Shown here one piece after another: positions 7,260-7,422 of a DNA stretch of 19,790 nt; the stretch's first letter is position 1; each line of letters begins with the position of its first letter. Origin of the DNA: a virus (taxonomy: Duplodnaviria > Heunggongvirae > Uroviricota > Caudoviricetes). Made by a program: the position numbers and the translations under genes. The notes beneath the pieces are model-generated. The model was not told the DNA's origin and ran no database searches. It saw only the letters and a list, made by a program, of their open reading frames with translations. Location: IMG/VR virus record IMGVR_UViG_2872180393_000005, positions 1-19,790 of that record; one strand, 5' to 3'.

Positions 7260-7422
7260 CATATCGTTTGCACAGTCACATTCGCGATTTATGGCGGGCT
7301 GTGTGGGGGAGCCGAAAGGCTCGCCGGTTTCCGTACCCGGTTACGCCAACCCTGCACAGTTCGCCACCAGTTCGATTGGCGTCGTCGGTGGCGATAATTT
7401 CCAAATGTACGGAGTTATCGTT

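What the first reader, a model, noticed from the sequence alone, without database searches (positions are those of the whole stretch)
7299..7359. Conserved 61-nt structured leader duplicated at two loci, with compensatory base changes in a GNRA-capped hairpin
Two 61-nt segments (7299..7359 and 10558..10618) sit between a tR'-like terminator and the start of each ORF6N-like gene. Both fold into the same architecture: a 10-bp closing helix (cugugugggg with cccugcacag, including two G-U pairs), an internal hairpin capped by a GNRA tetraloop, and a second hairpin ccgg-N9-ccgg. The internal hairpin differs between copies in a base-pair-preserving way: gagcc-GAAA-ggcuc in copy A versus gaguu-GAGA-gacuc in copy B. 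The loop of the second hairpin is variable. No protein frame is conserved across this segment; the antisense ORFs 7276..7581 and 10535..10840 in the track are unconvincing. Covariation like this points to a functional cis-acting RNA in the 5' leader of these late-operon genes, which I do not recognise as a described element.
Basis: seen in the sequence. Interest (0 to 1): 0.7.

Follow-up and report, generated by a model that had tools for sequence, protein, structure and literature searches.

The report
Known phage C4 antisense RNA, two copies
The two structured 61-nt segments are real and conserved, but they are the core of an already described phage regulator, the C4 antisense RNA, which keeps a prophage anti-repressor gene switched off, so the finding is a rediscovery and not a new element.

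Summary
Both segments fold as described, and every stem difference between them preserves pairing.

The element is not undescribed. Each segment is the core of a full-length match to Rfam RF01695, the C4 antisense RNA of phages P1 and P7 (77.6 and 68.7 bits; cut-off 45). Each is preceded by the c4-a1b1 target motif (RF03163), which overlaps an IsrK-type small RNA (RF01394) with its own promoter and terminator. Each is followed by an ORF6N anti-repressor gene.

In 52 homologs, 93.9% of stem cells pair, against 65.8% when shuffled. The "variable loop" is the specificity site b'. It differs at 8 of 9 bases between the copies. In each copy it matches a site at the anti-repressor ribosome-binding site (b2) and a site in the upstream small RNA (b1). 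The same holds in 94% (b2) and 75% (b1) of 113 related loci, against about 2.5% for non-cognate loops.

The Salmonella Gifsy-1 homolog (isrK-orf45/STnc1160-anrP) has been studied experimentally, and its published mutations map onto a1, a' and the C4 closing stem.

Most likely mechanism: a processed ~77-nt RNA blocks anti-repressor translation, and the upstream small RNA acts as a decoy.

Novelty: already known. Interest: low.

The parts
7147..7176 (+). Unit A promoter-like site, TTGACG-18-TATATT. The inferred transcription start is about 7183, by alignment with the mapped Gifsy-1 IsrK start.
   Evidence: 10 of 12 consensus matches; for the Gifsy-1 numbering.
7170..7222 (+). Unit A c4-a1b1 motif (two hairpins). 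Site a1, UUGGCGU, at 7208-7214, lies in the loop of the second hairpin.
   Evidence: Rfam RF03163, 52.2 bits against a cut-off of 46.7; coordinates.
7183..7259 (+). Unit A IsrK-type small RNA. It carries a1, then b1 (UACGGA, 7225-7230), then an intrinsic terminator (stem 7238-7255 plus a U tract to about 7261).
   Evidence: Rfam RF01394, 75.1 bits against 50; terminator scan; b1 position.
7287..7371 (+). The predicted mature RNA is about 7293-7369, by analogy with P1.
- Closing stem: 7292-7308 with 7350-7366.
- Hairpin 1: 7309-7322, GAAA cap.
- Hairpin 2: 7323-7341, with the b' loop UUUCCGUAC at 7328-7336.
- a': UACGCCAA, 7342-7349.
- tRNA-like tail ACCA: 7366-7369.
   Evidence: Rfam RF01695, 77.6 bits against 45, full length 1-87; fold; covariation; P1 reference coordinates.
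7361..7394 (+). Unit A a2 hairpin. Site a2, UUGGCGU (7376-7382), sits in the loop. The 5' arm (7361-7368) overlaps the 3' strand and tail of C4, so the two structures are mutually exclusive in an unprocessed transcript.
   Evidence: Sequence; a2 position; a' to a2 duplex of -10.0 kcal/mol.
7407..7414 (+). Unit A b2 site, GUACGGA (7407-7413). It overlaps the Shine-Dalgarno sequence GGAG (7411-7414) of the anti-repressor gene, whose ATG is at 7423.
   Evidence: the cognate b' to b2 duplex is -10.4 kcal/mol, against -4.4 with the copy B loop.
7423..7971 (+). Unit A regulated gene: an ORF6N-domain anti-repressor-like protein of 182 aa.
   Evidence: Pfam PF10543, 73.1 bits.
10409..10438 (+). Unit B promoter-like site, TTGACT-18-TATATT.
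   Evidence: 10 of 12 consensus matches.
10432..10519 (+). Unit B c4-a1b1 motif (10432-10484) and IsrK-type small RNA (10445-10519). Site a1 is at 10470-10476, b1 (UCGAAAC) at 10485-10491, and the terminator at 10499-10521.
   Evidence: Rfam RF03163, 52.9 bits, and RF01394, 77.8 bits.
10546..10630 (+). The b' loop AUGUUUCGA is at 10587-10595 and a' (UACGCCAA) at 10601-10608.
   Evidence: Rfam RF01695, 68.7 bits against 45; fold.
10634..10676 (+). Unit B target region. Site a2 (UUGGCGU, 10634-10640) lies in a hairpin loop. Site b2 (UCGAAAC, 10664-10670) lies just 5' of the Shine-Dalgarno sequence GAGG (10673-10676).
   Evidence: the cognate b' to b2 duplex is -8.4 kcal/mol, against -4.1 with the copy A loop.
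10682..11239 (+). Unit B regulated gene: an ORF6N-domain anti-repressor-like protein of 185 aa.
   Evidence: Pfam PF10543, 71.5 bits.

Best explanation
Each segment is the core of a C4-type antisense RNA, inside a complete immI-like anti-repressor control unit of a lambdoid prophage.

Proposed sequence of events:
1. A sigma-70-type promoter starts a transcript whose first ~77 nt form two hairpins. These display site a1 in a loop, followed by site b1 and an intrinsic terminator. Most transcripts stop there and give an IsrK-type small RNA.
2. Read-through transcripts contain the C4 domain. This domain has a 16-17-bp closing stem, a tetraloop hairpin, a hairpin whose loop is b', and a single-stranded joint that is a'. 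It is cut out as a stable ~77-nt RNA. By analogy with P1, the 5' cut is made by RNase P. The AU|GG 5' junction and the ACCA tail resemble a tRNA acceptor end.
3. C4 RNA pairs through a' with a2, which sits in the loop of the next hairpin. It pairs through b' with b2, which lies on or beside the Shine-Dalgarno sequence of the ORF6N anti-repressor gene. This blocks translation and keeps the prophage repressor safe.
4. The a1/b1 sites, both in cis and on the free IsrK-type RNA, compete for a'/b'. A rise in the small RNA therefore releases anti-repressor translation.

The two units share a' but carry different b'/b1/b2 sets, so they should be largely orthogonal at the b site.

Shown here: family membership, the fold, covariation, all six complementary sites, and the gene context. 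Inferred from P1 and Gifsy-1: processing, repression and decoy action in this organism.
For: Family and architecture:
- Both copies give full-length Rfam hits above the curated cut-offs for C4, c4-a1b1 and isrK.
- The layout matches annotated P1 (a1, b1, c4, a2, b2, then the regulated genes), an APSE-7 record that annotates isrK, C4, a', b' and a BRO anti-repressor, and Gifsy-1.

Structure:
- Identical minimum-energy folds with z = -4.1 to -4.7.
- RNAalifold on an ordinary MAFFT alignment of 52 homologs recovers the closing stem and hairpin 1 on its own. 16 of the 21 pairs in those two helices (23 pairs predicted in all) show double changes.
- 93.9% of cells are paired, against 65.8% shuffled and 38-50% slid.

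Targets:
- In both copies b' is complementary to a site at the ribosome-binding site and to a site in the upstream RNA. Cognate duplexes are -8.4 to -10.4 kcal/mol. Non-cognate duplexes with b2 are -4.1 and -4.4 kcal/mol.
- Across 113 loci the locus's own loop has an exact complement of at least 7 nt downstream in 94% and upstream in 75%. Loops taken from other loci do so in 2.6% and 2.3%.
- a1 is present in 112 of 113 loci, and a2 at a fixed offset in at least 81 of 113.

Gene context:
- 10 of 10 sampled downstream genes are anti-repressor types: Phage_pRha, Bro-N or AntA, two of them also with ORF6C.

Experimental support from homologs:
- In Gifsy-1, IsrK supplied in trans raises anrP translation 139-fold. 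The mutants G28A and G31A abolish this. The compensatory pairs G28-C162 and G31-C159 restore the RNA's wild-type conformation on native gels (structure A) and lower the raised basal anrP translation. A stable ~80-nt species is processed from the read-through transcript (PMC4825925).
- These positions map exactly onto a1, a' and the C4 stem.
- RNase P processing of the C4 precursor is cited in PMC11143913.
- 50 of 83 unique cores have ACCA directly after the stem, by a rough regex count.
Against: - Nothing was measured in this organism. RNA processing, trans action and repression are inferred by homology.
- P1 interposes the small icd gene, and its repression works partly through Rho-dependent polarity. 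That step has no counterpart here.
- The Gifsy-1 authors explain their data differently. They propose a cis structural switch plus translation of a 45-codon ORF that overlaps this RNA, and they detected a tagged ORF45 product. Over-expressing STnc1160 did not relieve IsrK toxicity.
- The full-leader fold of copy B prefers a1-b1 paired in cis with b'-a' over the C4 fold, so the free C4 form may be a minority before processing.
- b1 of copy A is only a 6-nt exact match.
- The prophage is riddled with insertion sequences, so the units may no longer serve a live phage.
Confidence: 0.85

Rival explanations
1. A purely cis-acting leader switch, with translational coupling through a small upstream ORF (the published Gifsy-1 model). 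In this view the segment is the body of an orf45-like reading frame. The leader toggles between two folds, and the small RNA opens the ORF's ribosome-binding site. Ribosomes then run into the anti-repressor start. No trans-acting C4 RNA is needed.
For: - Gifsy-1 data: a tagged ORF45 product was detected, and start-codon and early-stop mutations reduce activation.
- The AUG at 7291/10550 is highly conserved.
- In copy A this ORF runs in frame into the anti-repressor gene (226-aa ORF 7291-7971).
- Near-isoenergetic alternative folds are predicted for the full leaders.
Against: - In 83 unique homologs the ORF from this AUG has anywhere from 3 to 231 codons, with stops after 3, 4, 8, 14, 15 or 17 codons in several.
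- The hairpin-2 loop is 8-13 nt long, which shifts the frame.
- Copies A and B diverge in frame after an indel. Copy B stops after 35 codons, 24 nt before the anti-repressor start.
- The Gifsy-1 authors themselves report conserved nucleotide sequence but variable amino-acid sequence.
- The conserved AU|GG coincides with the mapped 5' end of P1 C4 RNA, so AUG mutations could act through processing instead.
- This model does not explain why b' matches b2 at the anti-repressor ribosome-binding site in 94% of loci.
- The model is not exclusive: cis pairing of a1/b1 with a'/b' is also part of the C4 model.
Confidence: 0.1
2. A recent duplication with no structural constraint. The two copies look alike only because they diverged recently, and the apparent compensatory changes are chance.
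For:
- The promoter and a1 hairpins are 100% identical over about 83 nt, which points to recent exchange between the copies.
Against: - About 80 distinct homologs from viral contigs keep the fold through abundant double substitutions.
- The family is curated in Rfam with covariation support.
- The differences between the copies cluster at b1, b' and b2, and they change together.
Confidence: 0.01
3. A decayed remnant. The element is a genuine C4-family member, but it sits in a defective, IS-riddled prophage and no longer regulates anything.
For: - Three IS3-family copies lie within 20 kb, and the region downstream of the lysis genes is interrupted.
- No complete E. coli genome in the collection carries the same tandem arrangement.
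Against: Both units are intact in every part: promoter, a1/b1, terminator, C4 above the Rfam cut-off, a2/b2, and full-length ORF6N reading frames.
Confidence: 0.04

Closest known systems
c4 antisense RNA of the immI operon of phages P1 and P7 (Rfam RF01695; Citron and Schuster 1990, cited from Weinberg 2010 and from the P1 GenBank annotation)
   Same: - The same three-helix fold, with a full-length covariance-model match.
- a' lies in the joint after hairpin 2, and b' lies in the loop of hairpin 2.
- The order is a1/b1 upstream, a2/b2 downstream, with b2 at a ribosome-binding site and an anti-repressor as the regulated function.
- The same 5' junction (AU|GG) and CCACC-type tail.
- Loop sequence defines specificity.
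   Different: - There is no icd gene: b2 sits directly at the anti-repressor gene's own ribosome-binding site.
- The anti-repressor is an ORF6N protein, not P1 Ant1/2.
- An intrinsic terminator separates a1/b1 from C4, so a1/b1 is also released as a free small RNA.
- The a and b sequences differ from P1 (P1 a' is CUGUCAA; here it is ACGCCAA).
- The host element is a lambdoid prophage, not a P1-type plasmid prophage.
- No C1-controlled operator was identified at the promoter (not tested).
isrK - orf45/STnc1160 - anrP locus of the Salmonella Gifsy-1 prophage (Hershko-Shalev et al. 2016, PMC4825925)
   Same: - It is the direct homolog, with the same three Rfam hits in the same order, the same promoter, identical a1, a' and a2 sequences, and an ORF6N-type gene starting MTTQISVETL.
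- Unit B occupies the same position, between the Q antiterminator gene and the tRNA and lysis genes.
- Experiments there show pairing between a1 and a', activation by the small RNA, and a processed species of about 80 nt.
   Different: - The b'/b1/b2 specificity differs (Gifsy-1 loop UCGGUGAU).
- In Gifsy-1 the overlapping ORF stops at the anrP start (AUGA). Here it is fused in frame in unit A and stops 24 nt early in unit B.
- The published model does not call the element C4.
- This window carries two units, one of them in the nin region.
CI RNA with seqA/seqB/seqC of satellite phage P4 (from my own knowledge and the discussion in PMC4825925)
   Same: A small RNA is processed from the leader of the operon it controls, and complementary sites lie both upstream and downstream of it. 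The Gifsy-1 authors call IsrK a structural homolog of seqA.
   Different: P4 CI causes premature transcription termination of replication genes instead of blocking translation of an anti-repressor. I did not test membership here.
sar antisense RNA of phage P22 (review PMC12197685)
   Same: A small RNA that represses translation of a phage anti-repressor gene.
   Different: sar is a true cis-antisense transcript from the opposite strand of ant. It has no C4 fold, no a/b two-site logic and no upstream decoy.

Membership tests
C4 antisense RNA (Rfam RF01695) | Covariance-model score at or above the curated gathering score, over the full model. | tested here: met
   77.6 bits (7287-7371) and 68.7 bits (10546-10630) against a cut-off of 45; model positions 1-87 of 87.
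C4 antisense RNA (Rfam RF01695) | [quoted passage not shown] | tested here: met
   Minimum-energy folds, with GAAA and GAGA caps. Covariation of the closing stem and hairpin 1 in 52 homologs. Tetraloop statistics in Weinberg 2010, Additional file 1. The hairpin-2 stem was fixed by my search pattern, so I did not score it. It does vary with pairing kept in P1 (CUGG/CCAG), in Gifsy-1 (G.U) and in the seed sequences printed.
C4 antisense RNA (Rfam RF01695) | Exposed a' and b' regions complementary to a2 and b2 downstream on the same strand, with b2 at a ribosome-binding site. | tested here: met
   Coordinates and duplex energies. 94% of 113 loci have their own-loop complement at the fixed downstream site, against 2.6% for foreign loops.
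C4 antisense RNA (Rfam RF01695) | a1/b1 sites upstream (the c4-a1b1 motif, RF03163). | tested here: met
   52.2 and 52.9 bits against a cut-off of 46.7. b1 is 6 nt in copy A and 7 nt in copy B.
C4 antisense RNA (Rfam RF01695) | The regulated gene is a phage anti-repressor. | tested here: met
   ORF6N domain in both downstream genes. 10 of 10 sampled homolog loci have Phage_pRha, Bro-N or AntA proteins (two also with ORF6C) downstream. Anti-repressor activity of these particular proteins was not tested.
C4 antisense RNA (Rfam RF01695) | Excision from a precursor into a ~77-nt RNA, with the 5' end made by RNase P. | not testable with these tools
   Indirect only: the conserved AU|GG junction and ACCA tail, a ~80-nt processed species reported for the Gifsy-1 homolog, and RNase P processing of P1/P7 C4 cited.
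C4 antisense RNA (Rfam RF01695) | Repression of the anti-repressor in trans, conferring immunity specificity. | not testable with these tools
   Inferred from P1/P7, and from the way b', b1 and b2 change together between the two copies and across loci.
P1-type immI operon (c4-icd-ant) | A small icd gene between C4 and ant whose translation is the direct target. | tested here: not met
   No ORF lies between C4 and the ORF6N start (52-55 nt apart). An Icd-like gene does follow C4 in other family members, for example L005 (NF033153, 70.8 bits).
IsrK small RNA (Rfam RF01394) | Covariance-model score at or above the cut-off, with a 3' intrinsic terminator and its own promoter. | tested here: met
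   75.1 and 77.8 bits against a cut-off of 50. Terminators and promoter-like sites. Hfq binding was not tested.

The most novel reading that the evidence does not exclude
The b' loop may act as a hypervariable "barcode" that co-evolves with two target sites. I found at least 48 specificity groups in 113 loci.

Prophages can carry two or more units that share a' but differ in b', as here and in L037, L108 and L012/L013. This would give partly coupled but individually addressable anti-repressor switches.

The Salmonella "dual-function IsrK/orf45" system would then be the same C4-plus-decoy circuit. In the literature I could search, this identity is only hinted at, through the comparison with P4 CI/seqA.
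Probability: 0.35. Interest if true: 0.35.

Novelty: already known. Interest (0 to 1): 0.12.

Why it matters
For the scan, this is a correct structural call on a family that has been in Rfam since 2010, so it is not a discovery.

Its practical value is annotation. NCBI's annotation of a related E. coli genome lists no RNA gene in the corresponding stretch upstream of its ORF6N gene. Two anti-repressor genes in this prophage can now be read as RNA-controlled.

A secondary point concerns b'. The matched variation of b', b1 and b2 across dozens of types shows how phages diversify RNA-based immunity. It also offers a natural set of orthogonal repressor-target pairs, and suggests re-reading the published Gifsy-1 IsrK/orf45 model in C4 terms.

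Tried and rejected
Alternatives ruled out:
- tRNA or tRNA-like gene: ARAGORN finds tRNAs only at 11447-11757.
- Antisense ORFs 7279-7581 and 10538-10840: no NCBIfam match, so I dropped them.
- Small coding ORF from the conserved AUG: rejected as the conserved feature, because its length ranges from 3 to 231 codons and loop-length changes shift the frame.

Technical dead ends:
- The MAFFT alignment shifted the 3' arm of hairpin 2 between rows, and RNAalifold mis-paired it. I removed those two pairs before counting. I did not score hairpin 2, whose stem was in any case fixed by my search pattern.
- An exact 43-nt scan of the species-representative genomes for the copy A junction found nothing, so the source organism is not identified.
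- No complete E. coli genome covers 80% or more of window 6000-12000.
- The primary RNase P paper (Hartmann 1995, PMC41593) is not held, so that step rests on a secondary citation and on my own knowledge.
- Four of the 120 pattern hits (L010, L045, L059, L074) were not C4-like and were excluded.

I did not test whether the IsrK promoter and terminator double as the Q-dependent late promoter and tR'.

Full report
**Observation**

Counting the two 61-mers directly gives 49/61 identical bases, with identical flanks. ViennaRNA gives both the same minimum-energy structure: a closing helix, a 5-bp hairpin capped GAAA or GAGA, and a 5-bp hairpin with a 9-nt loop.

- For the 61-mers, z = -3.4 and -2.5. 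For the 77-nt versions, z = -4.7 and -4.1.
- Hairpin 1 differs by one true double change (C-G to U-A) and one change that keeps a wobble pair (C-G to U.G).
The extension holds another compensatory pair: C7295-G7363 in copy A against U-A in copy B.

**Identity**

A scan of the window against Rfam settles what the element is.

- Both copies are full-length matches to RF01695, the C4 antisense RNA: 77.6 bits at 7287-7371 and 68.7 bits at 10546-10630, against a gathering score of 45.
- About 65 nt upstream of each lies a match to RF03163, the a1/b1 target motif of C4 (about 52 bits against 46.7).
- A sigma-70-like promoter (10 of 12 consensus matches) precedes each unit.

Weinberg et al. 2010 catalogued this motif in 593 sequences from Proteobacteria and phages. 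They noted covariation support, and they noted that this very hairpin usually ends in a GNRA, UNCG or CUUG tetraloop. They also described the a1b1 motif (PMC2864571, Additional file 1). An APSE-7 GenBank record even annotates isrK, C4, a', b' and a BRO anti-repressor in this same order.

**Anatomy compared with P1**

The P1 record annotates a1, b1, the 77-nt c4 RNA, a2 and b2, followed by icd and ant. In P1, b' is the loop of hairpin 2 and a' is the joint that follows it.

Transferring this to the window:

- a' is UACGCCAA in both copies.
- a1 (UUGGCGU) sits in the loop of the second leader hairpin.
- a2 (UUGGCGU) sits in the loop of a hairpin just 3' of C4.
- In copy A, the b' loop UUUCCGUAC matches GUACGGA at 7407-7413, which overlaps the Shine-Dalgarno sequence of the ORF6N gene. 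It also matches UACGGA at 7225-7230.
- In copy B, the b' loop AUGUUUCGA matches UCGAAAC at 10664-10670, beside the Shine-Dalgarno sequence, and at 10485-10491.
- Cognate b' to b2 duplexes are -10.4 and -8.4 kcal/mol. The cross pairs are -4.1 and -4.4 kcal/mol.

**Homologs**

One pattern scan of viral contigs gave 120 stretches, with about 80 distinct C4-like cores.

- *Structure.* On a plain MAFFT alignment of 52 of them, RNAalifold recovers the closing stem and hairpin 1 without any guidance. For those 21 pairs, 93.9% of cells are standard pairs, against 65.8% in shuffles (0/500) and 38-50% when partners are slid. 298 cells have both sides changed, against 93 expected.
- *b sites.* In 113 loci, the locus's own hairpin-2 loop has an exact complement of at least 7 nt at a fixed site before the downstream gene in 94%, and in the upstream RNA in 75%. 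Loops from other loci do so in 2.6% and 2.3%.
- *a sites and loop diversity.* a1 is present in 112 of 113 loci. There are 64 distinct loops, forming about 48 groups.
- *Downstream genes.* All ten sampled downstream genes are anti-repressor types. Some loci carry an Icd-like gene first, as in P1.

**Is it coding?**

The conserved AUG at 7291/10550 opens an ORF that runs in frame into the anti-repressor gene in copy A. In copy B it stops after 35 codons. Across homologs it has between 3 and 231 codons, and loop lengths of 8-13 nt shift the frame.

The AU|GG junction coincides with the mapped 5' end of P1 C4 RNA. Fifty of 83 cores carry ACCA directly after the stem, by a rough regex count. This resembles a tRNA acceptor end and fits the reported RNase P processing.

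**Experimental homolog**

Gifsy-1 of Salmonella carries the same three Rfam elements between its Q gene and an ORF6N-like gene. This is the published isrK-orf45-anrP locus (PMC4825925).

Numbering from the IsrK start, the published mutations fall as follows:

- G28 and G31 lie in a1.
- C159 and C162 lie in a'.
- A107 is the conserved AUG.
- G114, C175 and G173 lie in the C4 closing stem.

The paper shows several things:

- a1 and a' pair, through the compensatory pairs G28-C162 and G31-C159.
- IsrK supplied in trans activates anrP translation 139-fold.
- A stable species of about 80 nt (STnc1160) is processed from the read-through transcript.

The authors interpret this as a cis structural switch plus translational coupling through orf45, and they compare the system with P4 CI/seqA rather than with C4. 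My full-leader folds show both conformations to be close in energy. I read their data as compatible with the C4-plus-decoy model, but that is my inference.

**Context**

Unit B lies between a Q-like antiterminator gene (DUF1133/Phage_antitermQ, 9738-10412) and the tRNA and lysis genes, as in Gifsy-1. Unit A lies in the nin region, upstream of hok/sok. A related E. coli prophage has only that unit, and its annotation lists no RNA gene there. Calling the upstream terminator tR'-like does not fit copy A and is untested for copy B.

**Verdict**

The structure and the covariation are real. The element is a known family with a known type of mechanism, and its direct homolog has been studied experimentally. 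Novelty is "already known" and interest is low.

The only mildly new points are three. The b' specificities are very diverse. Multi-unit prophages recur. And I found no paper in the searchable literature that mentions both STnc1160 and C4.

Noticed in passing
L003-L122 (viral contigs); window 7328-7336 and 10587-10595: The b' loop of C4-like RNAs is hypervariable. There are 64 distinct loops (about 48 groups) in 113 loci. Each loop is matched by its own b2 site (94%) and b1 site (75%), while a' was held constant by my search pattern. This amounts to a large natural set of RNA specificity types.
   Followed up: partly
L123 14050-14370 (minus strand; Gifsy-1): The published IsrK/orf45 mutations (G28, G31, C159, C162, A107, G114, C175, G173) map exactly onto a1, a', the C4 5' junction and the C4 closing stem. 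In the held library, no paper mentions both STnc1160 and C4 antisense RNA.
   Followed up: partly
L037 (5561-5593 and 6409-6441), L108, and L012/L013 (same contig): Other phage contigs also carry two C4 units with different b' loops, so the two-unit arrangement in this window is not unique.
   Followed up: no
window 7183-7440 and 10445-10700: Full-leader folds differ between the copies. The copy B minimum-energy structure pairs a1-b1 with b'-a' in cis and destroys the C4 fold. The copy A structure keeps the C4 fold. The two conformations appear close in energy.
   Followed up: partly
window 7190-7197 and 10452-10459: The loop of the first leader hairpin (GCAAAAUC) is conserved from this window to P1 and to the Pseudomonas c4-a1b1 sequences. 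It has no assigned partner or function.
   Followed up: no
window 7144-7226 vs 10406-10488: The promoter and the a1 hairpins are 100% identical between the two units over about 83 nt, while the adjacent b1/terminator segment is almost unalignable. This suggests modular exchange or gene conversion between the units.
   Followed up: no
window 2028-3184, 4082-5238, 13881-15037 (minus strand): Three copies of an IS3-family insertion sequence (ORFs of 100 and 272 aa; IS600-like from memory) lie within 20 kb, one of them just downstream of the prophage lysis genes. No complete E. coli genome in the collection has this arrangement, and a Shigella-type genome is a plausible source.
   Followed up: no
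window 463-607, 3440-3618, 8074-8246, 18245-18427: Other curated RNAs in the window are SraC/RyeA with SdsR/RyeB at the left edge (probably the chromosomal flank of the prophage), the RalA antitoxin RNA, sok, and CssrB.
   Followed up: no
window 11447-11757: A cluster of four tRNA genes (Met-CAU by ARAGORN, annotated as Ile in a related E. coli genome; Arg-UCU; Thr-UGU; Gly-UCC) lies between the unit B anti-repressor gene and the lysis genes.
   Followed up: no
L005 5964-6170 (minus strand): In some homologs an Icd-like cell-division-inhibitor gene (NF033153, 70.8 bits) directly follows C4, as in P1. In that subgroup the ORF from the conserved AUG runs in frame into it.
   Followed up: partly
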